DNA of 32,457 nt from a virus, in the UHGV virus genome UHGV-0096747, one strand, 5' to 3'. The notes under the pieces are model-generated. The model made no database searches. It saw only the letters and a list, made by a program, of their open reading frames with translations, and was not told the DNA's origin. Numbering within the stretch: the stretch's first letter is position 1; the number at the start of each line of letters is the position of its first letter. Positions 5,685 to 28,870 of the stretch are shown one piece after another. A program made the translations under genes and the position numbers.

Positions 5685-6875
5685 TTAATTGCTGTTAACC
5701 GAGGTGACCAGATTTGCCAGATATTTATCGGTGATACGCTGGCGCAGGGTCAGGTTTTCGAGAGGAGGCACCGGGGTATAGTCGTAGTCGATATACAGTT
5801 TTCCGGCCTTGAGGGTTTCCGCATCGTTGGATTCTTCGCTGAACCAGCAGGTCGCATCCACGATATAGCCGTTTGTTTTCAGCTCACGGAATTTGGCATT
5901 GATGCCGTCAACGATGTCGCGAATCAGCGTTGCAGTGATGGGCTTGTCCACCGCCCACATGTGCGCCTCAGCCATCGTGTCGGCCAGCACCTGCGCGGTG
6001 CGGGTGTAGTTTTCAAAGAGGAACAGCGGGTCATCAGAGCAGGTACGGTTACCCCAGAAGCGGAAACCGTCACGGCGAATCAGCGTTGTGACACCTGACT
6101 CGTTCAACAGGTCAGCATCGGTGCCGGACTCCTGCAAATCCCAGAATACAGAGGCACTGATGCCGGTAACGCCGTTTACCCCGACGTTGGACAGCGTTTT
6201 ATGCCAGCCCTGCTCCTGGTCGATTTTAGCGCGCAGACCCAGCGCACGGGCGGTGGCATACGCGGTGGCGGTGGTGCTGCTGACCGTATCCCATGCGAGG
6301 AAATCCGGCCAGATGACCATCAGCTCACGCTGGCTGAAATTCTGGCGGTAGGCTTTCACCTCGGAAATGGTTTTACAGCCCCATGCGCTGATATACCCGA
6401 AAGCGCGCAGCTTCTGACAGACGGATACCAGTGCAACAGCCACCTCTTTGGTGTCCAGTCCCGGCACACCGAGAATACGCGGTTTAACACCGGTTACCGA
6501 CTCCGCCGCCAGCAGGGCTTTCAGTCCGGTGTACTGACCGTTTTCGTCGGTGGTGCCGATGATATTGGAAACGGTCTGCGCGAGTTTCGTTTCTTCGTCT
6601 TCGCCGGTGCCGTCTTCCACACGCACGACAACGGTGACCGGTTTTGACTGGTCGGCGATGGCCTGCAACGATGCCGCCAGCGTGCCTTTTTTACCGGCCT
6701 TCGCAATTGCGCTCTGCACATTGGTAATCAGCACCGGTTTATTGAGGGGGAAGGTTTCCGCATCCGCATCGCTGGCCGTGCAGACCATGCCGACAATGGC
6801 CGTGGATACGGTGGAAATGACGCGGGTGCCGTCGTTAATCTCCAGCACCTGCACGCCATGATGATAGTCACTCAT
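5685..6875 (-). CDS. FI: Tail sheath protein FI
   Basis: 396 aa as in P2 gpFI; position. Confidence 0.9.
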   Translation of the reverse strand: MSDYHHGVQVLEINDGTRVISTVSTAIVGMVCTASDADAETFPLNKPVLITNVQSAIAKAGKKGTLAASLQAIADQSKPVTVVVRVEDGTGEDEETKLAQTVSNIIGTTDENGQYTGLKALLAAESVTGVKPRILGVPGLDTKEVAVALVSVCQKLRAFGYISAWGCKTISEVKAYRQNFSQRELMVIWPDFLAWDTVSSTTATAYATARALGLRAKIDQEQGWHKTLSNVGVNGVTGISASVFWDLQESGTDADLLNESGVTTLIRRDGFRFWGNRTCSDDPLFLFENYTRTAQVLADTMAEAHMWAVDKPITATLIRDIVDGINAKFRELKTNGYIVDATCWFSEESNDAETLKAGKLYIDYDYTPVPPLENLTLRQRITDKYLANLVTSVNSN

Positions 6876-7052
6876 CCGTTTAACTCCGTGGTTAATGGGT
6901 GCAACTATTTTCTGTTGGGCAGTGCATGAGACGCTATTTGACCTGGCTGGTCAGTGGATGAAACAACAGATAAAGAAAAGGCGGGCAATCAGCTTGCCTG
7001 CCTTGATTTGTACTCTCTCTGTTTCCAACTGACAAATTACGTAACCAAAATT

Positions 7053-7068
7053 CTGTCAAATCTGACAG
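7053..7068. terminator. Possible weak bidirectional terminator hairpin between the cargo gene and FI
   Basis: CTGTCA-AATC-TGACAG perfect 6-bp dyad flanked by 4-T runs on both strands, 68 nt downstream of the 7136..7828 ORF. Confidence 0.3.
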
Positions 7069-7135
7069 CCTGTTTTGAGCGAAGAGCGGACCTGAGATTG
7101 TGGTATGCTAATTTATGGGGAGCAGGTCAATTGTA

Positions 7136-7828
7136 TTAGTTATCTTTTTGCTTTTCTTTATCCCATTTCTTTGCAGTGGTCTGATACCACTCTTCACGTG
7201 CTCGTTGTTCCTCGGCTCTGTCACTTGAATTATAGTTGTCTGTTTTAATTTTTTTGCTTCCCTGGGAAATCGGCCTCCAGTCTTCTCTAATCTTTTTCAT
7301 CTGCTCAGCTATCTGTGTCATTGGACTCCTTGCACCTAAGTAGCTAACCCCCTCGAAAGAAGCCATATCATAAGAATACTCATTCCGCTCTCTTTCAGTT
7401 GAGCCCGGCTGTTTAGACCAGCTAATACTAACAGAATAAACTTGATCTTTAATCTGGTCATACTTACAAAGACTGCTGTTAAGGGAATGGCCGTTTTTCA
7501 ATACGCTAACCTTGCTAAATGGTATACCTTCATTTTTTCTATGTTCTGCATTAACCAGTGGGGGATTAAATCCGACTTCAATATCATAGGCTGGGGCATT
7601 TCCGGTATTAGCAATATTGATATCAAAATAAAAAGCAGCCCAAGAATTTGGTTCAAGAGTCACAACGACATGAGGTTGAACTGATGCGTCAACCATCCTT
7701 TTTGTCTCGTCTGCTAATAGCCTTGTTACTCTCCACAAGAAAAATGTAGCAACTGCTGTTAGCAATGCTGCCAAAGCGGAGATAAGTGTACTTACTGTGT
7801 TTATATGCTCTGCGATAAATTCGATCAT
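7136..7828 (-). CDS. Hypothetical single-pass membrane protein, AT-rich cargo at the Z/fun position
   Basis: 230-aa ORF with ATG start and AAGGA Shine-Dalgarno 7 nt upstream; N-terminal hydrophobic helix (VSTLISALAALLTAVATFFLW) then a charged soluble domain; AT-rich unlike the flanking tail genes. Confidence 0.6.
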   Translation of the reverse strand: MIEFIAEHINTVSTLISALAALLTAVATFFLWRVTRLLADETKRMVDASVQPHVVVTLEPNSWAAFYFDINIANTGNAPAYDIEVGFNPPLVNAEHRKNEGIPFSKVSVLKNGHSLNSSLCKYDQIKDQVYSVSISWSKQPGSTERERNEYSYDMASFEGVSYLGARSPMTQIAEQMKKIREDWRPISQGSKKIKTDNYNSSDRAEEQRAREEWYQTTAKKWDKEKQKDN

Positions 7829-8319
7829 GAGTTGTCCTTGGGGGCGTACTAATTGTTTTCAATACTAAAATAGCGCCGGGCTTGAAAAATTGCACACTTA
7901 TGGTTCGATTTACCTCAACAGTTAAGGCTTCAACTTCCCCCATGCACCTCACCCAGCCCAAGACTGTATGAGGTCTGACAAAGAACTTCCTGACACTTGA
8001 AAACGAGGCAACGGCTAGGGTTTCTCGTAGGGCAAGGATTGAATACGAAGCCTGTATATTGCTCCGCGAACGCTGCTGAGGGCAGTTTAAATGTTGGGCG
8101 TTTATGTAGCCTTTCACTCACCAGCATGAGTTCAATGTCTGTGAGTTACCGACAACAATATAAAGGGGGTGGCATCATCATATATCCAAGCTAGAGTCAA
8201 ATCCTATAACTGGTTTTATGATCAGTGTCAATTGTTTGATTATTGAACGTTTACGAAGCAGCACGGGAGCCATATAACTAATGGGCAGGTATAAGCCTGT
8301 ATCACGAGGAATCAGTAAA

Positions 8320-8499
8320 ATGGCTGATGATAAGACCAAAATCGGTACCCCTGACAATGATTTAATAAGTATCAAACAGGATTACGAGAGACGTGATTGG
8401 GCTGAAAAGTTTGGAGTTAGCGAGGCCAAACTTGTTCAAGCCGTACAGGCTGTAGGTCATTCGGCTAAGAAAGTACAGGCATGGCTTAAAGACCATTAA
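8320..8499 (+). CDS. Small hypothetical protein (59 aa), resembles the DUF3606 family
   Basis: Internal ATG at 8320 with GAGGAA Shine-Dalgarno 8 nt upstream (the track ORF starts earlier at 8281); WAEKFGVSEAKLVQAVQAVGHSAKKV matches my memory of the DUF3606 pattern; followed by a terminator. Confidence 0.5.
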   Translation: MADDKTKIGTPDNDLISIKQDYERRDWAEKFGVSEAKLVQAVQAVGHSAKKVQAWLKDH

Positions 8500-8505
8500 T
8501 ATATG

Positions 8506-8528
8506 AGCGCCTTTCTAGGCGCTTTTTT
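8506..8528 (+). terminator. Rho-independent terminator between the two small cargo ORFs
   Basis: AGCGCC-TTTCTA-GGCGCT hairpin followed by TTTTTT. Confidence 0.5.
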
Positions 8529-8551
8529 CTTTGTCCTTTGGGAGATGATTT

Positions 8552-8830
8552 ATGGCTAATAATTTATTTATTACTTACGACCTCATTAAAACGAAAGATT
8601 ATGCGGCTGTGTATGATGCAATTAAATCTTTAGGAAATTGGGCTTTAACAACTGAATCGAACTGGTATGTTAACTGTAGTTACTCTGCCGAGGATGCAGC
8701 CAAAATTGTGAGGGCGGTCATGGATAGTGATGATAAGCTTATTGTTGTAGACGCAACCAATAACTCAGCTTATTGGTACAATCTCTCAGATGAAGTTAGT
8801 AACCAAATTCTGACTGAGTGGAACAAGTAA
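8552..8830 (+). CDS. Small hypothetical protein (92 aa)
   Basis: ATG with GGGAG Shine-Dalgarno upstream; AT-rich; alternating hydrophobic strand-like and helix-like segments (LFITYDL, KLIVVDA, AYWYNL); no family assigned. Confidence 0.5.
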   Translation: MANNLFITYDLIKTKDYAAVYDAIKSLGNWALTTESNWYVNCSYSAEDAAKIVRAVMDSDDKLIVVDATNNSAYWYNLSDEVSNQILTEWNK

Positions 8831-8856
8831 TTAAAGGGGGTGGGTACCCCCTTTAA
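8831..8856. terminator. Perfect 10-bp inverted repeat (TTAAAGGGGG / CCCCCTTTAA), likely bidirectional terminator closing the cargo island
   Basis: Palindrome with 6-nt loop immediately after the stop of the 92-aa ORF. Confidence 0.4.
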
Positions 8857-9049
8857 TTCAGAAACTATCATGATTGAAACATTAAATATACTGGGTTAAT
8901 TCTTTCATCCTTGCTCCCTTGCTATATGTCCTGAAAGCGTCCTTTTTAGCCTTCTGCTCAGTATGTCCGGTAATGGCACAGAGCGGACTGTCAGATTAGG
9001 CTTTACTCTGTGCCATAGATATGTAATCTCACACCAGAGCTTATACAAC

Positions 9050-9577
9050 TTATTGCGGCATTTCCGGCCATTCAGGATTTGCAGGATCCACACGACTGAC
9101 CAGAACGCTGTAGCGTTCCCAGATCTCCAGCCGTGTGCGCTCCTCATCTGTTGCCATGTTCAGTCTGACCGCGCGCTCCAGCGGCAAAATCACGGATTCA
9201 GCATCTGCTAGAAGTCTGGCTTTCCGATTTTCTGCCTGCTGCTGCAATTCCTCCGCCGTATAAATTCGTTTAATCACTGTGCCGTCCTTAAACATCCAGT
9301 TCCCTGAAATGTCCGCCCGTCGGTTAGCGGTAATATCCGGCACTTCAACAACACTTAATCCATCTGGTCTGATAGCTGTCACATCCTTTTCCACATAGCG
9401 GATAATATTATCTTTGTCGTACGCTATTTTTATCGTGTCATCAGCAAAATACTTTTGTTCTTCGTACCAGTTCTTACCATCTTCTGAAAAAAACCAGACA
9501 ACATCAAAACCCTTTGTCAATTGATATTGTTCAACCGTTTTTGGATTACCCGCCGTAATATTTTTTAAATGCTGCAT
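9050..9577 (-). CDS. G: Tail fibre assembly protein
   Basis: 175 aa as in P2 gpG; immediately downstream of the tail fibre gene. Confidence 0.88.
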
Positions 9578-14087: not shown

Positions 14088-14873
14088 ATGGTCAGCTATA
14101 ATGTGACTAATGTGTGGGGGCTAATCGTTTTTTTCCTTTGTAGCTTTGCAGTATTAGCATTTTTTAGCTTTGGTAAAAGTAACCTTATGAGGCTTATTGC
14201 ACATTATTTCAATTTTGGATATTCAGACAAAAAATTAAAAAGACTTGACCGCGAGTGGCGCGACATTCAACTATTTAAAATAATTAACGGAATCAATGTA
14301 TCAGGCATTGAAAATGTGAGAATGATACAGCAGGGACTGATTGATGGAAAACTAAAAACATCGTATTTTTTCCTTACTCGCATCTGGGGTGACATAACAA
14401 AAACACCACACATAATTAAAACAATAATTGTAATTCTGTCCAGTATTTTTTACATTCTCCTCGCATGTTACATACACAACGAACAATCCGTTATAGTAAG
14501 GGATGCCATAGGCATACCATATAAAAACATGATGTACTATGTTTATAGTGACAAAGTTCTTTTATCCTTCAAAAATAAAGCAGTTGAATTTAATAAAACT
14601 TATAGCCTTGCCGATTGCAAGAGACTGCAAAACGTATTTATAAAAGACACACTTCCTGAAATCGCCTGCAATAAGCTCTTACAGCTAAACGAGGAGGACT
14701 CCGAATGGTTAAGCCAGGAGATTAAAGATAATAACAGTCACAAAAAAGCATTATCAATACTATCCCTCGTCTATTTCACTTCAGGTCTGGTTATATTCCT
14801 GTCATATACAAAATTCTTTTACGCCAATAAGAAGGTTTTAGAATACAAAGCATCAAATAAAAATCACTCATAA
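14088..14873 (+). CDS. orf30-like AT-rich membrane protein, antisense to the late operon
   Basis: 261 aa (786 bp, the size I recall for P2 orf30); ATG with AGGAG Shine-Dalgarno; three hydrophobic helix-like segments; very AT-rich; opposite strand to flanking V and S. Confidence 0.7.
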   Translation: MVSYNVTNVWGLIVFFLCSFAVLAFFSFGKSNLMRLIAHYFNFGYSDKKLKRLDREWRDIQLFKIINGINVSGIENVRMIQQGLIDGKLKTSYFFLTRIWGDITKTPHIIKTIIVILSSIFYILLACYIHNEQSVIVRDAIGIPYKNMMYYVYSDKVLLSFKNKAVEFNKTYSLADCKRLQNVFIKDTLPEIACNKLLQLNEEDSEWLSQEIKDNNSHKKALSILSLVYFTSGLVIFLSYTKFFYANKKVLEYKASNKNHS

Positions 14874-24152: not shown

Positions 24153-24217
24153 ACACCCCGCCATCACGACGCGCTCAGACGCTGAAAAAATAAAATCAGC
24201 ACCACCGCCAGCGCGCA

Positions 24218-24368: not shown

Positions 24369-24698
24369 TTAAAACTTGATGGTATTTAATAAAACGCGAA
24401 AAGCCACACACTTTGTAGAAATAGCAGAAACCTTTGCCTTATCCTGCTTCCTTGCCTGAGACTCAAAATCATCACCTGTTATAATATCAAAAAGTTCGTC
24501 ATGAAAAACCCTTAACTGAGCTTCAATATCCTTTCTTTTCCATCGCGACTCTTGCTGAACATATATTGTTATAGTCGAATTTATTATATTTAAACTCGCC
24601 TTAATTCTCATTTCCTCTTCTAAGAGAGACTTCGCCGACTTTTTTGAATACCCCTTCAACCAATAACTAATAGCATCAGAACGCAACTCATTAACCAC
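24369..24698 (-). CDS. Hypothetical protein, fourth ORF of the old/tin-position cargo operon
   Basis: 109-aa ORF with GTG start and GGAGAG Shine-Dalgarno 10-11 nt upstream; AT-rich; overlaps the preceding ORF by 43 nt in another frame. Confidence 0.4.
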   Translation of the reverse strand: MVNELRSDAISYWLKGYSKKSAKSLLEEEMRIKASLNIINSTITIYVQQESRWKRKDIEAQLRVFHDELFDIITGDDFESQARKQDKAKVSAISTKCVAFRVLLNTIKF

Positions 24699-25030
24699 AT
24701 CTGAAATACTCTCCAGGAGTTTGGTTTTAGTCTCCCGTTTAACAACAGAACGCCAATGGACTTTATTATATGCAAATGCGGCAGTGGCCGCAAAATAGTA
24801 CTAATAAGAGCCGTAATAAGTGATGACGATAAAATAGGCGTTTCAGGTGGATGCCGTATTGCATCAACAATATTAGAACTAGCTACTTCAATTATCGTAT
24901 TAATATCCTTAACTGCATGAGTAGCACTCAGGCCTTCTTCATTATCCTTCTTGATAAAAAGCAAACTAGGTGAGAACTCACCAGAACCCTCACCTAAAAT
25001 AAACATCGGATTATTCGACTGTTGGCTCAT
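24656..25030 (-). CDS. Hypothetical protein, third ORF of the cargo operon (C-terminal half may be out of frame)
   Basis: 124-aa ORF with ATG start overlapping the end of the upstream ORF by 20 nt; AT-rich. Confidence 0.4.
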   Translation of the reverse strand: MSQQSNNPMFILGEGSGEFSPSLLFIKKDNEEGLSATHAVKDINTIIEVASSNIVDAIRHPPETPILSSSLITALISTILRPLPHLHIIKSIGVLLLNGRLKPNSWRVFQMWLMSCVLMLLVIG

Positions 25031-25400
25031 ATCGTTTCGAATTAAACTGCGCCTCGTTGATATATTGTTCTATTTTCTTTTTATAGAAATCAAAATCAGG
25101 ATTAGTATATTTAATTTCAATTTTAGACAATAACTCATTGGCATGCATATATCCATATTTTACCATGCCCGCAAAGCCCTCCACCAAAAAAGACGAACCA
25201 TATCCTTCGACATCATCATCGATGACTATCTGCAATTTTTCCCCAGCAGAAAGCAAGCTTAGACGCTTTCTTAAGAAATCTTCTCTAAACCGTTCACCAC
25301 TTGCTGTCCCGTCAGTACGATAGCGGCCTCTGGGAACTTTCGAGAACTCTGAACCAATCTTCAATGTTTTCATGAGGCTAGCAACCAATCTAGTAATCAT
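25011..25400 (-). CDS. Small protein (129 aa), possible STAS-like fold, translationally coupled to the upstream ATPase gene
   Basis: The ATG at 25398..25400 overlaps the upstream TGA (ATGA coupling) and has a GGAG Shine-Dalgarno; the track ORF starts earlier at a TTG. Segment IVIDDDVEGYGSSFLVEGF loosely resembles the STAS core. Confidence 0.5.
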   Translation of the reverse strand: MITRLVASLMKTLKIGSEFSKVPRGRYRTDGTASGERFREDFLRKRLSLLSAGEKLQIVIDDDVEGYGSSFLVEGFAGMVKYGYMHANELLSKIEIKYTNPDFDFYKKKIEQYINEAQFNSKRYEPTVE

Positions 25401-26527
25401 AGCTTTGTACTCCATACTATAAGTGTACCACAAACAGGCAGAGCGAAGCTTACTGATTTTACCTCAGATTTTTTATCATGTTGTGAGTATTTGTAAAGGC
25501 CTTTACCACTCATAATTGAAAGATAACCTTCACCACGTTGCTTTATGAACTCCAACAAGTCCTGCAAGCCTTTACCCCGATCCTCTTCCCCCGTACTAGA
25601 ACGTTTGATTTCAACTGCAGCCTTTAACAATTGTTCATCTCTTTTTCGTTCTGCAAGCGGTAACTTCGAAAGGTAATTTAAAACCTTTTCATGGAGTTTA
25701 GATTCCGGCAAAGACCCAGGAATTGTAATACCTTGATCATAAAACACTACTTTTATTATTCTACTTGAACTATCATATGAAGCAGTTAAATACCATTTTT
25801 TATCATGCTCATGATAACCTTTATTATCTGGATAAGCATGATGAACAACATTTGTAATAGCTTCGGACAAACCACTATATAGGAAAGTCCATTTACCAAG
25901 GTCTTCTCCCACAATACGCTTTATTTCTTTTTTTAAATGCTGAGTTTTTTCATCATCATGTAAATGTCCTTTCATATACTTAACAAAACGGATATTACTT
26001 GGTTCCTTTTCTTTTTCAAGCTCAAAACTATCTTTATTTCTAAATAAGTCAAAAAAACCCAACTCATCAAATTGAGAGAGTATGTTTTTATTCCACGTTT
26101 TCACTTTTGGGCGAATGCGTTGCCTTACCGAATCATCCCATTTTGATAATTCCGCGGTCAATACCAATGCGGCAGATGCAGAAATATATTCAATCTTCGA
26201 AAAGTCAACAAAACAAAGACGGTAACATTGGTTATTAAATATCTTCCGCCCCGTAAGATGCCTAATCGTTTGTATGGCTTGCATTGTACGATGGTAATTA
26301 CTTGAAAAGTTCATCTTTTTAGGTAAAGTAAGGAAAAGGTCTCTATTTTTCCTTATTTCGCAATTTAATCCATCTTTAATTTGCGCATTTATCCAACGAT
26401 TTATTTTTGATGCTTTTGAAATAGGATTAATCTTAGAGCGCCCTGCAGATACAACATCTCTTCCTGTACGATGTAAATAGGATCGTAAAATATCTCTCTC
26501 TCTTTCTCTCTTGGTTATTTTTTTCAT
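25397..26527 (-). CDS. GHKL-family ATPase or kinase-like protein with N-terminal STAS-like segment, first gene of the cargo operon
   Basis: 376 aa; ATG with strong AAGGGGGG Shine-Dalgarno; C-terminal motifs EAITNVVHHA (N-box-like), FYDQGITIPG (G1-like) and DRGKGLQDL (G2-like); N-terminal VDFSKIEYISASAALVL resembles the STAS phospho-site region; AT-rich. Confidence 0.55.
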   Translation of the reverse strand: MKKITKRERERDILRSYLHRTGRDVVSAGRSKINPISKASKINRWINAQIKDGLNCEIRKNRDLFLTLPKKMNFSSNYHRTMQAIQTIRHLTGRKIFNNQCYRLCFVDFSKIEYISASAALVLTAELSKWDDSVRQRIRPKVKTWNKNILSQFDELGFFDLFRNKDSFELEKEKEPSNIRFVKYMKGHLHDDEKTQHLKKEIKRIVGEDLGKWTFLYSGLSEAITNVVHHAYPDNKGYHEHDKKWYLTASYDSSSRIIKVVFYDQGITIPGSLPESKLHEKVLNYLSKLPLAERKRDEQLLKAAVEIKRSSTGEEDRGKGLQDLLEFIKQRGEGYLSIMSGKGLYKYSQHDKKSEVKSVSFALPVCGTLIVWSTKL

Positions 26528-26752
26528 CTTCCCCCCTTAGAAAACTGACGCATTTAACAGCTTTTTTATCATTTTTTCAATCAGTTGTATCAATTTTTGA
26601 TGTGCGCATCAAACTTCTCAAACCCACACAAACACAAACTATCTCGCCCATCCCCTCTAGCCAACCTCAAAACTGTACATAATATGCTCTTTTTCCCGCA
26701 AGGTTATGCGCGAGCCACTCATTCAGCATTAACTTATCATTACAAAACATAA

Positions 26753-28870
26753 TCAGATTGGGCGTTGGCTAGCCCTTCCTTTGAATACCATCAATTCCCG
26801 TGAGTAATCTTTTAATCTCTTCCTAAGAACTGTCATCACCTCAGCATCATTCCAACTAACCACCCCTATATCAATCAAATCCAACACTGCTGCAGCGTGC
26901 TCAGAAGGTGTGGGAGCCGGTAACGAAGTATCACCACCAGTGAGCTTTCCACAGTTATTGACAGGACTCCGAGGCGCGGCGATGCCGCTTTTTAAAGTCA
27001 AAGGCTCAACGACCGGAACTTTCGGCACAATGCGCCAGTCCGTCGTTCTGGTGATATGAATATGACGCGCGCCGAGATGCGGCGCGTAAATGCCGACCAC
27101 TCTCTCGACTTCTTCCTCGTACTCGTTAACGTCATCCGACGGGCTACGGGCGACTCTGACAGTCTGGCAATCACGCGGAACATTTGCCCCACCCTGCGCG
27201 CTGATATACAACGCAAAATCACCACTGTCTGCGGCGGCACGTGCAGCCTCAACGCGTTCGTCAAACTCATCAGCAATGCTGACGCCGCGAGGCAATTTGC
27301 GTAGTTCACGGTAAGCCCCCATTGTCGGCAGGCCAACCGTTTTAAATTGCGGGATGCGCCACGTTGACGCCCATGCGGTAACAGCCGCAGCAGTATCTTT
27401 CAGCGGCCTGCCGGTATCGTTATCGAGCTGACCATCCAGTGCATAGCCATCGATGTTTTTTGAGATGTATTTCGCGATATACCCCGCAGCACCGCCCCGG
27501 TTAAGATGTTTTGCCTGAAAACGGTTTCGCGCGGCTCCTCTTTCGTCGCCATCCTCTTTGAGCGCATAGCGACGCATGATTTCGATAATCTGGTTACGCT
27601 GGCGTGGATTACAAAAAAGCATCATATGCCAGTGCGGCGTTCCGTCGTGGTGTGGCTCGACGACTCGCAAACCGTAGACCTGTAAATCATTATCCTTGAA
27701 TGCCGTGCGCATCAGGCTCCAGATACGACAGAGATAACGCTGCGCATCCTTTGGATTAAATGCCTCATCGTTCCAGCCGTGATTAAGCTGAACGGTTTTA
27801 CTTTCGCCTTTTCTGACCTGACGAGTCGGGTGATACTTTGACGGCGCGGTCAGCGTGATAAACATCCCCACATCACCCTCTGCGGCGGCGTAACGCTCAA
27901 TACCGGCAATGGTGTTCATCAGCTCCATCCGGCGAATTTCAGGATTAGAAATACTGCCCATCACCTTACTGATAAGGTCGATGCGCTCGCCGGTTTCCCT
28001 GTTTTCAAGGTCACACGATTTAAGAAATTCCAGATTTGCCTGGCGGCGCGCACGCACATCACGAATGGCGTGTTTACTGGCATAAGGAGAACGGTCTTTA
28101 TTGACCTCCCCGACAGCTATCAGTAACGCTTCATGCCAGCGCATACGCTGGCCTTTAAGCTGATGAGTCCACCACTCATCGTTAAACAGACGGGCAATGG
28201 CAGAATATGCCTGCCTCGTGGTCATCTGCCCTTTACGGTATTTTTTCCAGTAGAGAGGGGAAATATTGAAAGCACGTGCAGCGCCAGCAACATGACCATA
28301 GAGGTGAGCCTGCGCCTCATCCGTAAACAGCGATTCTTTTTCGCCATGCGCATCCACCCAGGCATCGCTGAGTTCCTCATACATCATGAAAAGCTGCGAT
28401 GAGATACGGGCAGCAAACTTTTTCAGCTCCTTGTCATTCATTCCCGGCAGGCGCGCATAGTGGTCACGCTCTGCCAGAAACAGTAACGACGCGTCGGTGT
28501 TCATTTCATGGCGCTGATTCACACGCTCAATGCGCGGCCATAAACGACGCTGAAAAGTGGATGTGAGGAAATAAAACCCGTGTACCGGGCTTTTATTGCG
28601 CCGGATGTAGTCATAGCGTGAAGTAAACAGCGAGCGCAAAAAGTAAGGCAGGCGGTTAATCGTGGATAAAACACCTTGCACCTGACGCATCTCGTCACGT
28701 GTAAGGGGTCTTTCGCGCCCGACGGCCTCGCGTGGCGCGTTCCATGCATAAGCACCGGTAAACGCCTTACCGGTGCCTGCAGCAAATGCTGAAGGAGGGA
28801 CAAAACGCCCGGAGGCTTTAACGGCCATATGAGCCAAAAGCCTCTGAACAACGCCTGCTGAGTTGCTCAA
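26753..28870 (-). CDS. A: Replication initiation protein A (rolling-circle nickase)
   Basis: About 700 aa in the P2 A position upstream of the old/tin island; HUH-like GTPHWHMML and tyrosine motif YIAKYISK. The track start is a TTG; an in-frame ATG at 28828 is an alternative. Confidence 0.85.
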   Translation of the reverse strand: MSNSAGVVQRLLAHMAVKASGRFVPPSAFAAGTGKAFTGAYAWNAPREAVGRERPLTRDEMRQVQGVLSTINRLPYFLRSLFTSRYDYIRRNKSPVHGFYFLTSTFQRRLWPRIERVNQRHEMNTDASLLFLAERDHYARLPGMNDKELKKFAARISSQLFMMYEELSDAWVDAHGEKESLFTDEAQAHLYGHVAGAARAFNISPLYWKKYRKGQMTTRQAYSAIARLFNDEWWTHQLKGQRMRWHEALLIAVGEVNKDRSPYASKHAIRDVRARRQANLEFLKSCDLENRETGERIDLISKVMGSISNPEIRRMELMNTIAGIERYAAAEGDVGMFITLTAPSKYHPTRQVRKGESKTVQLNHGWNDEAFNPKDAQRYLCRIWSLMRTAFKDNDLQVYGLRVVEPHHDGTPHWHMMLFCNPRQRNQIIEIMRRYALKEDGDERGAARNRFQAKHLNRGGAAGYIAKYISKNIDGYALDGQLDNDTGRPLKDTAAAVTAWASTWRIPQFKTVGLPTMGAYRELRKLPRGVSIADEFDERVEAARAAADSGDFALYISAQGGANVPRDCQTVRVARSPSDDVNEYEEEVERVVGIYAPHLGARHIHITRTTDWRIVPKVPVVEPLTLKSGIAAPRSPVNNCGKLTGGDTSLPAPTPSEHAAAVLDLIDIGVVSWNDAEVMTVLRKRLKDYSRELMVFKGRASQRPI

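What the first reader, a model, noticed from the sequence alone, without database searches (positions are those of the whole stretch)
25397..26527. 376-aa protein combining a STAS-like segment with a GHKL-type ATPase or kinase domain
The C-terminal roughly 150 aa carry Bergerat-fold motifs in the expected order: EAITNVVHHA (N-box, E-x3-N-x3-H-A), FYDQGITIPG (G1, D-x-G) and DRGKGLQDL (G2, G-x-G-L). The N-terminal region contains VDFSKIEYISASAALVL, which aligns well to the STAS region around the phosphorylatable serine (compare LDLSGVSFMDSSGLGVL in SpoIIAA/RsbV-type proteins). A fused partner-switching module (anti-sigma antagonist plus RsbW/SpoIIAB-like serine kinase) in a prophage defence hotspot would be unusual. 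It could act as a phage-sensing switch.
Basis: partly seen in the sequence, partly recalled or inferred. Interest (0 to 1): 0.75.

Follow-up and report, generated by a model that had tools for sequence, protein, structure and literature searches.

The report
Prophage kinase–STAS–membrane protein cassette
The 376-aa protein really is a STAS domain fused to a SpoIIAB-like kinase domain, and it is the first gene of a conserved three-gene prophage cassette (kinase, small STAS substrate, membrane protein) that resembles the recently described VapKSC/CapKS phage-defence switches but has a different, uncharacterised output protein.

Summary

The gene is not alone. Its stop overlaps (ATGA) the start of a 129-aa DUF4325 (STAS-like) gene with an invariant serine. 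A third gene follows, encoding one transmembrane helix plus a four-helix bundle. This trio recurs in about 40 of 46 loci from diverse bacteria, in P2-like, lambdoid and Marinobacter phages, and in genomic islands.

The architecture matches CapK/CapS and VapKSC (EMBO J 2026). There, a STAS-GHKL kinase activated by ssDNA phosphorylates a STAS partner and so releases a toxin or de-represses an operon. Here the output is a membrane protein, not a PIN nuclease. HMMER does not link the kinase to VapK or CapK; only hhalign does (E 3e-5).

Rousset 2022 listed the cassette in the P2 hotspot, and I found no record that it was tested. In this window the third gene carries a 1-nt frameshift.

Verdict: a real feature and a new variant of a known kind. 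Function is inferred.

The parts
26593..26621 (-). Sigma-70-like promoter candidate upstream of gene 1 (TTGAGA-17-AAAAAT)
   Evidence: Consensus scan only, 9 of 12 matches. Weak evidence. It lies in the 225-bp gap between the gene A stop and the gene 1 start.
25397..26527 (-). Gene 1: 376-aa STAS-GHKL protein, the putative serine kinase (CapK/VapK-like architecture)
26363..26527 (-). Gene 1 residues 1-55: basic N-terminal extension (15 K+R, net charge +10) with two predicted helices; R20 and W45 invariant
   Evidence: CapK has an HTH at this position and VapK has nothing.
26000..26362 (-). Gene 1 residues about 56-176: STAS-like domain (strand-helix-strand-helix, ending in the ELGFFDLF helix)
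25400..25999 (-). Gene 1 residues about 177-376: GHKL (Bergerat-fold) domain with N, G1, G2 and G3 boxes
25011..25400 (-). Gene 2: 129-aa DUF4325 (STAS-like) protein, the predicted kinase substrate. Its ATG overlaps the gene 1 stop (ATGA). Invariant Ser70 (codon 25191..25193) lies in a GSSF..E motif.
   Evidence: Sequence. RefSeq calls it 'DUF4325 domain-containing protein'. All 32 homologues hit Pfam DUF4325, best E 1e-15. S70, F71 and E74 are invariant. The motif matches the CapS phospho-site DSS54F..E.
24369..25030 (-). Gene 3: 212-220 aa when intact (variable N-terminus, one TM helix, cytoplasmic four-helix bundle). In this window it is split by a 1-nt deletion into ORFs 24656..25030 and 24369..24698.
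24792..24793 (-). Frameshift site in gene 3 (one base missing relative to 15 complete E. coli genomes), inside the TM helix codons
   Evidence: All 15 matches span 2462 nt against a 2461-nt query.
24199..24214 (-). Terminator-like hairpin followed by a T-run, downstream of gene 3
   Evidence: Consensus scan only.

Best explanation
The finding is the first gene of a three-gene cassette carried in the P2 prophage variable hotspot. The cassette most likely works as a phosphorylation-gated anti-phage (abortive-infection or toxin-antitoxin-like) switch of the CapK/VapK type.

Gene 1 is a STAS-GHKL serine kinase. On an infection or DNA-damage cue (ssDNA in the characterised relatives), it phosphorylates the invariant Ser70 of the small DUF4325/STAS protein (gene 2). 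Unphosphorylated gene 2 protein is proposed to hold the cytoplasmic four-helix bundle of the membrane-anchored gene 3 protein in check. Phosphorylation would release it, and gene 3 protein would then damage or depolarise the membrane and stop growth.

Shown here: the domain folds, intact catalytic motifs, the invariant serine, strict three-gene synteny, and carriage on prophages and islands. Inferred by analogy: kinase activity, the substrate relation, the trigger, the toxin role of gene 3, and any defence phenotype.

In this window gene 3 is frameshifted. This copy is therefore probably inactive, unless the missing base is a sequencing error.
For: - ATP-binding motifs are invariant.
- Gene 2 overlaps gene 1 by ATGA. 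It is a DUF4325 member, as are all 32 homologues. VapS is also DUF4325, at 62.7 bits.
- Gene 2 S70, F71 and E74 are invariant and match the CapS phospho-site S54, F55, E58.
- Gene 1 is followed by gene 2 in 44 of 46 genome loci, and by a homologous third ORF in 41 of 43.
- Published precedent: CapK phosphorylates CapS S54 when activated by ssDNA. VapK/VapS/VapC protects against phage Bas42, and the phospho-mimic VapS S48E releases the toxin.
- hhalign of gene 1 against VapK: E 3.3e-5 over 138 GHKL columns.
- Gene 3 has a TM helix followed by a K/R-rich stretch, so the bundle is predicted to be cytoplasmic.
- Context: the P2 hotspot in E. coli and Serratia; a lambdoid Klebsiella prophage; a methylase/integrase island in Methylotenera; directly downstream of the CI-like repressor gene in Marinobacter phage AS1.
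- A related three-gene version lies in the P4 satellite hotspot.
Against: - No experiment exists for this family. I found no sign that Rousset 2022 tested it, and it has no PADLOC model.
- HMMER does not connect gene 1 to VapK (14.9 bits) or CapK (2.1 bits), nor gene 2 to VapS or CapS. The relation rests on architecture, fold, shared Pfam DUF4325 membership and a moderate hhalign hit (72% probability).
- The ssDNA-contact residues of CapK (W68, K237, K239) and VapK (F54) are not clearly conserved, so the trigger may differ.
- Gene 3 has no recognisable toxin domain, and its fold match is generic.
- A single TM helix is a weak basis for calling a pore-former.
- No g2-g3 or g1-g2 complex could be modelled with the tools available.
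Confidence: 0.55

Rival explanations
1. Classical partner-switching wiring. The kinase (gene 1) itself binds and sequesters the gene 3 protein, as an anti-sigma factor holds sigma. Unphosphorylated gene 2 protein displaces it, and phosphorylation of gene 2 resets or limits the response. Gene 3 is still the output, but the logic is inverted relative to VapKSC.
For: The best structural matches are SpoIIAB and RsbW with their antagonists SpoIIAA and RsbV, which work this way. The kinase carries its own STAS domain, which could occupy the active site in cis until displaced. S116 and S118 are invariant among close homologues.
Against: No PP2C phosphatase gene accompanies the cassette in any locus inspected, so antagonist recycling is missing. 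In the two characterised STAS-GHKL systems the substrate, not the kinase, holds the output. The fused-STAS serine is not conserved in distant members.
Confidence: 0.15
2. The kinase is the effector. Once activated, it phosphorylates phage or host proteins to block infection. Gene 2 is an inhibitor or decoy substrate, and gene 3 is a membrane-located sensor or anchor that detects phage DNA entry or envelope perturbation.
For: The kinase is the only enzymatic domain in the cassette. Gene 3 resembles the four-helix-bundle sensor modules of chemoreceptors and histidine kinases in fold. The ssDNA-contact residues are not conserved, which leaves room for a different input.
Against: The four-helix-bundle match is generic and includes designed bundles. 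The bundle is predicted to be cytoplasmic, not periplasmic. The invariant Ser in gene 2 points to a dedicated substrate, as in CapS and VapS.
Confidence: 0.12
3. The cassette is a stress-responsive toxin-antitoxin or addiction module, or a general DNA-damage response carried as a prophage moron, without a specific anti-phage role.
For: The CapKS/VapKSC authors themselves note that these systems respond to a global signal (DNA damage) and blur into stress responses. Several loci lie in ordinary chromosomal neighbourhoods.
Against: The cassette recurs in dedicated defence hotspots of P2 and, as a relative, of P4. It also sits next to repressor genes of temperate phages. In the 2026 P2/P4 survey, 6 of 8 P4 loci of unknown function protected against phages.
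Confidence: 0.12
4. The GHKL domain is an ATPase (MORC, MutL or Hsp90-like) rather than a protein kinase, and the STAS domains mediate nucleotide or ligand binding.
Against: The top hit, with the fullest coverage, is the serine kinase SpoIIAB. The weak profile hits are to RsbW, SpoIIAB and HATPase_c_2. The domain lacks the transducer domain of GHL ATPases. A partner STAS protein with an invariant Ser is the hallmark of the kinase branch.
Confidence: 0.05

Closest known systems
VapKSC (VapK STAS-GHKL kinase, VapS DUF4325/STAS antitoxin, VapC PIN toxin); Chambers et al., EMBO J 2026 (PMC13373217)
   Same: A three-gene operon in the same order: STAS-GHKL kinase, small STAS protein with a short C-terminal helix and an invariant Ser, then an output protein. 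VapS and gene 2 both belong to Pfam DUF4325. hhalign of gene 1 against VapK gives E 3.3e-5. VapKSC is found near defence genes.
   Different: The output here is a single-pass membrane four-helix-bundle protein, not a PIN nuclease. Gene 1 has an extra 55-aa basic N-terminus. HMMER does not link the proteins. VapK F54 has no conserved aromatic counterpart. No phenotype has been measured.
CapK-CapS transcriptional controller of CBASS, Bub and Thoeris operons (same paper)
   Same: An N-terminal extension, STAS and GHKL in one protein of nearly the same length (368 vs 376 aa; N-box Asn at 218 vs 226). The partner phospho-site motif is SSF..E in both. The LGFFD helix ending the STAS domain is shared.
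   Different: Gene 2 has no wHTH DNA-binding domain and no immune operon follows. hhalign gives only E 2.3e-4 over 53 columns. The CapK N-terminus is an HTH, which is not shown here.
SpoIIAB-SpoIIAA and RsbW-RsbV partner-switching modules
   Same: These are the best structural matches for both halves of gene 1. The chemistry is a serine kinase acting on a STAS serine at the N-terminus of helix 2.
   Different: In those systems the kinase and STAS are separate proteins, the target is a sigma factor, and a PP2C phosphatase resets the switch. None of this holds here.
Rousset et al. 2022 catalogue entries: P2 hotspot 'hypothetical + DUF4325 + hypothetical' (WP_032254602 + WP_032254618 + WP_126646822) and P4 hotspot system 69 'HATPase_c | DUF4325', with 1 TM in protein 3
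   Same: The first entry is this very cassette. The second is a family member at the HMMER level: gene 1 profile E 1.7e-8 and gene 2 profile E 7.7e-25 at a library size of 1.8e9. It has the same kinase, STAS, 1-TM layout.
   Different: These are catalogue entries only. I found neither in the paper's lists of tested systems. The P4 third protein is only marginally similar to gene 3 (hhalign E 4e-4).

Membership tests
GHKL / Bergerat-fold ATPase-kinase superfamily | N box (E-x3-N), G1 (D-x-G-x-G), G2 (G-x-G-L) and G3 (G-T) in order | tested here: met
   E222/N226, D264/G266, G318/G320/L321 and G367/T368 are all invariant in 28 homologues.
GHKL / Bergerat-fold ATPase-kinase superfamily | Bergerat alpha/beta sandwich fold | tested here: met
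GHKL / Bergerat-fold ATPase-kinase superfamily | Pfam HATPase_c / HATPase_c_2 score above the gathering threshold | tested here: not met
   16.9 bits against a cut-off of 27.4. 23 of 28 homologues hit at E of 0.1 or lower (best 9.4e-4); the window protein is below the cut-off.
GHKL / Bergerat-fold ATPase-kinase superfamily | ATP binding and phosphotransfer | not testable with these tools
   Needs biochemistry.
STAS domain | Pfam STAS (PF01740) profile match | tested here: not met
   No hit at E of 1 or lower for gene 1. A P4 relative reaches 17.8 bits, below the cut-off.
STAS domain | STAS fold | tested here: met
STAS domain | Conserved phosphorylatable Ser/Thr at the N-terminus of helix 2 in the fused STAS | tested here: inconclusive
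   S116 and S118 are invariant in 28 close homologues. They are replaced by P, A, G or C in distant members, N in VapK and A in CapK.
DUF4325 (STAS-like), for gene 2 | Pfam PF14213 at or above the gathering threshold | tested here: met
   24.1 bits against a cut-off of 23 for the window protein. All 32 homologues hit, best E 1.1e-15.
CapK/VapK-type STAS-GHKL kinase with STAS substrate | STAS and GHKL in one polypeptide, immediately followed by a STAS-protein gene | tested here: met
   Synteny holds in 44 of 46 loci.
CapK/VapK-type STAS-GHKL kinase with STAS substrate | Absolutely conserved Ser/Thr in the substrate STAS helix 2 | tested here: met
   Gene 2 S70 is invariant in 32 sequences, in a motif SSF..E as in CapS S54.
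CapK/VapK-type STAS-GHKL kinase with STAS substrate | Sequence homology to CapK or VapK, as used to define the families (BLAST level) | tested here: not met
   HMMER gives 14.9 bits (VapK) and 2.1 bits (CapK). Only hhalign detects a link: E 3.3e-5 and 2.3e-4.
CapK/VapK-type STAS-GHKL kinase with STAS substrate | Conserved aromatic and basic ssDNA-binding residues; activation by ssDNA | tested here: inconclusive
   The VapK F54 position is not aromatic across the family. Invariant F74 lies within two residues of CapK W68 in the alignment. K237 and K239 are not conserved. Activation itself cannot be tested here.
VapKSC | Third gene encodes a VapC-type PIN nuclease | tested here: not met
   Gene 3 has no PIN or other Pfam hit. 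The model is a TM helix plus a four-helix bundle.
CapKS | Substrate carries a wHTH domain, and the pair sits upstream of an immune operon | tested here: not met
   [quoted passage not shown] The cassette is followed by the portal gene on the other strand.
Classical RsbW/RsbV/RsbU partner switching | PP2C phosphatase and a sigma-factor target in the module | tested here: not met
   None is present in the cassette or its flanks in the loci inspected.
Rst_3HP (Rousset 'hp + hp + hp' P2 system) | Homology to the three validated proteins | tested here: not met
   The published sequences, read by eye, are unrelated in sequence and size. There is no PADLOC hit.

The most novel reading that the evidence does not exclude
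This is a distinct and widespread family of phosphorylation-gated defence systems. The profile search found 2534 50%-identity clusters for the kinase. In this reading a STAS-GHKL kinase controls, through a DUF4325 protein, a new type of single-pass membrane four-helix-bundle effector. It senses a cue other than the ssDNA sensed by CapK/VapK, perhaps through its unique basic N-terminal extension. That would extend the kinase/STAS module from nuclease and transcription outputs to membrane-targeting abortive infection.
Probability: 0.35. Interest if true: 0.65.

Novelty: new variant of a known kind. Interest (0 to 1): 0.5.

Why it matters
If the cassette is active, it would be a third output type for the newly recognised STAS-GHKL kinase / STAS-substrate signalling module in bacterial immunity: a membrane effector, alongside transcriptional de-repression (CapKS) and a PIN toxin (VapKSC). 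That would support the view that this kinase pair is a portable sensor wired to different effectors. It would also give a function to one of the unannotated gene sets that fill P2 and P4 hotspots, and to a large uncharacterised protein family (1657 clusters at E of 1e-10 or lower). The gene 3 family has no known function, so a phenotype would define a new effector class. The system is small (2.2 kb), comes from E. coli, and has obvious point mutants, so it is directly testable.

Tried and rejected
- **Sequence-only identification.** Pfam, NCBIfam, PADLOC and PDB sequence searches gave sub-threshold or no hits for gene 1 and gene 3.
- **PHROGs.** Only families of unknown function: phrog_3364 for gene 1 and phrog_5816 for gene 2.
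- **Rst_3HP.** I suspected the cassette was the validated 'three hypothetical proteins' P2 system. The published sequences are unrelated, so I rejected this.
- **Direct homology to VapK/CapK and VapS/CapS.** Tested with HMMER profiles at library scale and not detected. hhalign is moderate for the kinases and not significant for the substrates.
- **AFDB Foldseek.** Unavailable.
- **Deepening the gene 3 alignment.** The second and third homologue searches mostly returned close relatives, so the gene 3 model rests on 20 sequences.
- **Motif chance estimate.** A regular-expression estimate for the GHKL motifs failed because my pattern did not match the protein itself. I discarded it in favour of conservation and fold evidence.
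- **Phage collection.** Only two distant matches.

Full report
**Observation.** The ORF at 25397..26527 on the minus strand encodes 376 aa. It starts at an ATG five bases after a GGGGGGAAG Shine-Dalgarno sequence.
- EAITNVVHHA, residues 222-231
- FYDQGITIPG, residues 262-271
- DRGKGLQDL, residues 316-324
- VDFSKIEYISASAALVL, residues 107-123
- a G3-type GT in CGTLIVWS, residues 366-373

The protein is identical to a cluster seen on 568 contigs. All of its relatives are annotated as hypothetical. In an alignment of 28 homologues averaging about 50% identity, the ATP-binding residues are invariant: E222, N226, H230, D264, G266, R317, G318, G320, L321, G367 and T368.

**Profiles versus fold.** Sequence profiles almost fail on this protein.
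- Pfam HATPase_c_2 scores 16.9 bits against a cut-off of 27.4.
- No STAS model is hit.
- NCBIfam gives only E of about 0.02-0.2 to RsbW and SpoIIAB.
- PADLOC and PDB sequence searches find nothing.

- a basic N-terminal extension, residues 1-55, net charge +10
- a STAS-like domain, residues about 56-176
- a GHKL domain, residues about 177-376

**The locus.** The window is a P2-like prophage. It carries GPA replication protein, portal, terminase, GPD baseplate hub and integrase genes. The finding lies in a 2.4-kb island of 35-38% GC between gene A and the portal gene. This is the P2 hotspot that holds old and tin in P2 itself.

The island holds three co-directional genes:
- **Gene 1** is the finding.
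- **Gene 2** (25011..25400, 129 aa) starts at an ATG that overlaps the gene 1 stop as ATGA. It is a Pfam DUF4325 'STAS-like' protein.
- **Gene 3** is a single 212-220 aa protein in 15 complete E. coli genomes that carry the island at 99% identity or higher (15 of 5426 genomes). In this window one base is missing at about 24792, which splits it into 124-aa and 109-aa ORFs.

**Conservation.** A pattern scan of one genome per species returned 46 loci. They come from gamma-, beta- and alpha-proteobacteria, Desulfuromusa and Desulfocapsaceae, Nitrospinales, Binatia and Entotheonella.
- Gene 1 is immediately followed by a gene 2 homologue in 44 of them.
- A third plus-strand ORF of 126-283 aa follows within 49 bases, or overlaps by up to 49 bases, in all 43 loci where this could be examined. 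41 of these are homologous to gene 3 by iterated search.
- All 32 aligned gene 2 proteins hit DUF4325. They share invariant P23, G25, R26, G35, F38, R39, S70, F71, E74 and G78.
- A profile search of 1.84 billion cluster representatives found 2534 relatives of gene 1 at E of 0.001 or lower, and 1657 at 1e-10 or lower. Most are 340-400 aa and cover both the STAS and GHKL parts.

**Context elsewhere.**
- The cassette sits in the same gene A-portal hotspot of diverged P2/186-like prophages in Serratia.
- In Methylotenera it lies in an island with a DNA methylase, a ParB-like gene and an integrase.
- In Klebsiella it lies in a lambdoid prophage, next to a 128-aa fragment of a P2-type portal gene. 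This suggests it moved there together with a piece of its P2 flank.
- In the isolated temperate Marinobacter phage AS1 it lies directly downstream of the CI-like repressor gene (AS1_41, AS1_40 and AS1_39). I confirmed all three with local profiles.
- In Cycloclasticus it lies between ordinary chromosomal genes.

This is the distribution expected of a mobile moron or defence cassette. It does not prove function.

**Literature.** Rousset et al. 2022 list this exact trio in their P2 hotspot table as 'hypothetical + DUF4325 + hypothetical' (WP_032254602 + WP_032254618 + WP_126646822). They also list a P4-satellite system 69, 'HATPase_c | DUF4325, 1 TM in protein 3'. I found neither in their lists of tested systems. 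Their validated 'hp + hp + hp' system is unrelated. At a library size of 1.8e9, the P4 system is a family member for gene 1 (E 1.7e-8) and gene 2 (E 7.7e-25). Its third protein has the same layout but only marginal similarity.

The key precedent is Chambers et al., EMBO J 2026 (PMC13373217).
- CapK is an HTH-STAS-GHKL kinase. When activated by ssDNA it phosphorylates Ser54 of CapS, a STAS-wHTH repressor.
- VapKSC is a three-gene anti-phage toxin-antitoxin system. VapK (STAS-GHKL) phosphorylates VapS (STAS plus a C-terminal helix) and so releases the VapC PIN toxin.

I recovered the VapK, VapS, CapK and CapS sequences from that paper's supplementary files.
- VapS is a strong DUF4325 member (62.7 bits).
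- hhalign of the gene 1 alignment against VapK gives E 3.3e-5 over 138 GHKL columns. Against CapK it gives E 2.3e-4 over 53 columns.
- The substrates align only weakly (E 0.009 and 0.26). However, the gene 2 motif GSS70F..E74 matches CapS DSS54F..E58.
- HMMER does not detect VapK, CapK, VapS or CapS with the family profiles.

The cassette therefore shares the architecture and probably the ancestry of these systems, but it is a separate family.

**Which STAS is the substrate.** S116 and S118 are invariant among close homologues. In distant members of the same family that position is P, A, G or C. In VapK it is N and in CapK it is A. By contrast, gene 2 Ser70 is invariant in every member. The separate protein is therefore the better candidate acceptor, as in CapS and VapS. 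In CapK and VapK the fused STAS is predicted to form the ssDNA-binding groove together with the GHKL domain. The published ssDNA-contact residues are not clearly conserved here. The VapK F54 position is variable, and CapK K237 and K239 have no counterpart. Only the invariant F74 lies near CapK W68 in the alignment. I therefore treat the trigger as unknown, with ssDNA as the default guess.

**Mechanism and rivals.** The best-supported model, at confidence about 0.55, has three steps:
1. The kinase senses an infection or DNA-damage cue.
2. It phosphorylates gene 2 Ser70.
3. This releases the membrane-anchored gene 3 protein, which arrests growth.

The folds, motifs, invariant serine and synteny are shown here. 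All the biochemistry is inferred. The rivals are:
- inverted, classical partner-switching wiring
- the kinase as effector, with gene 3 as a membrane sensor
- a non-defence stress or addiction module
- an ATPase rather than a kinase

No phosphatase gene accompanies the cassette. That argues for a one-way switch.

**Caveats.** The copy in this window has a frameshift inside the TM-helix codons of gene 3. It is probably inactive unless the missing base is an assembly error. One MAG locus (L014) also has a split gene 3. The gene 3 model rests on a shallow alignment of 20 sequences. No complex could be modelled.

**Verdict.** It is best classed as a new variant of a known kind, of moderate interest and directly testable.

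Noticed in passing
window 24792 (gene 3, 24369..25030, minus strand): A 1-nt deletion relative to 15 complete E. coli genomes splits the third gene of the cassette into 124-aa and 109-aa ORFs. It is either a strain-specific inactivation of the putative effector or an assembly error. Locus L014 (a Pseudomonadales MAG) also has a split third gene.
   Followed up: partly
window 26753..28870 (minus strand): The P2-type replication gene A ORF is 705 aa here. RefSeq flags the orthologous CDS in NZ_AP038246 as 'incomplete, missing C-terminus'. Serratia relatives with the same cassette have 738-749 aa. Acquisition of the cassette may have replaced the 3' end of gene A.
   Followed up: no
window 7000..9000: A second low-GC (41-42%) island lies between the ORF at 5685..6875 (not annotated here; tail-sheath position in P2) and the tail-fibre assembly gene (9050..9577). 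It holds ORFs 7136..7828 (230 aa, phrog_11802), 7689..8117 and 8552..8830 (phrog_1090). All are of unknown function with no Pfam or PADLOC hit. The position corresponds to the P2 Z/fun variable locus.
   Followed up: partly
window 14088..14873 (plus strand): A 261-aa ORF in a 36% GC island, on the opposite strand to the neighbouring ORFs (not annotated here). It matches phrog_2407 (unknown function) and has no Pfam or PADLOC hit. It may be another moron.
   Followed up: partly
L054/L055 12410..12796 (Klebsiella lambdoid prophage): The same three-gene cassette is followed by a 128-aa fragment of a P2-type portal gene inside a lambdoid prophage. This is a footprint of transfer from a P2 hotspot together with flanking DNA.
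   Followed up: no
L056 2884..5262 (Marinobacter phage AS1, MK088078): In an isolated temperate phage, the cassette (AS1_41, AS1_40, AS1_39) lies directly downstream of, and co-oriented with, the CI-like HTH gene AS1_42. The position is analogous to rexAB downstream of cI in lambda.
   Followed up: partly
L052 1456..3447 (Serratia P2-like prophage): The int-CI hotspot of the same prophage carries an AAA_15/AAA_21 (OLD/PARIS-type ATPase) gene, so both variable loci of that phage hold candidate defence genes.
   Followed up: no
phrog_5816 (441-position profile), matched by window gene 2 at positions 340-439: The PHROG family that matches gene 2 is a 441-position profile, and the STAS-like part falls at its C-terminus. 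This suggests that fused versions with a large N-terminal part plus DUF4325 exist in phages.
   Followed up: no
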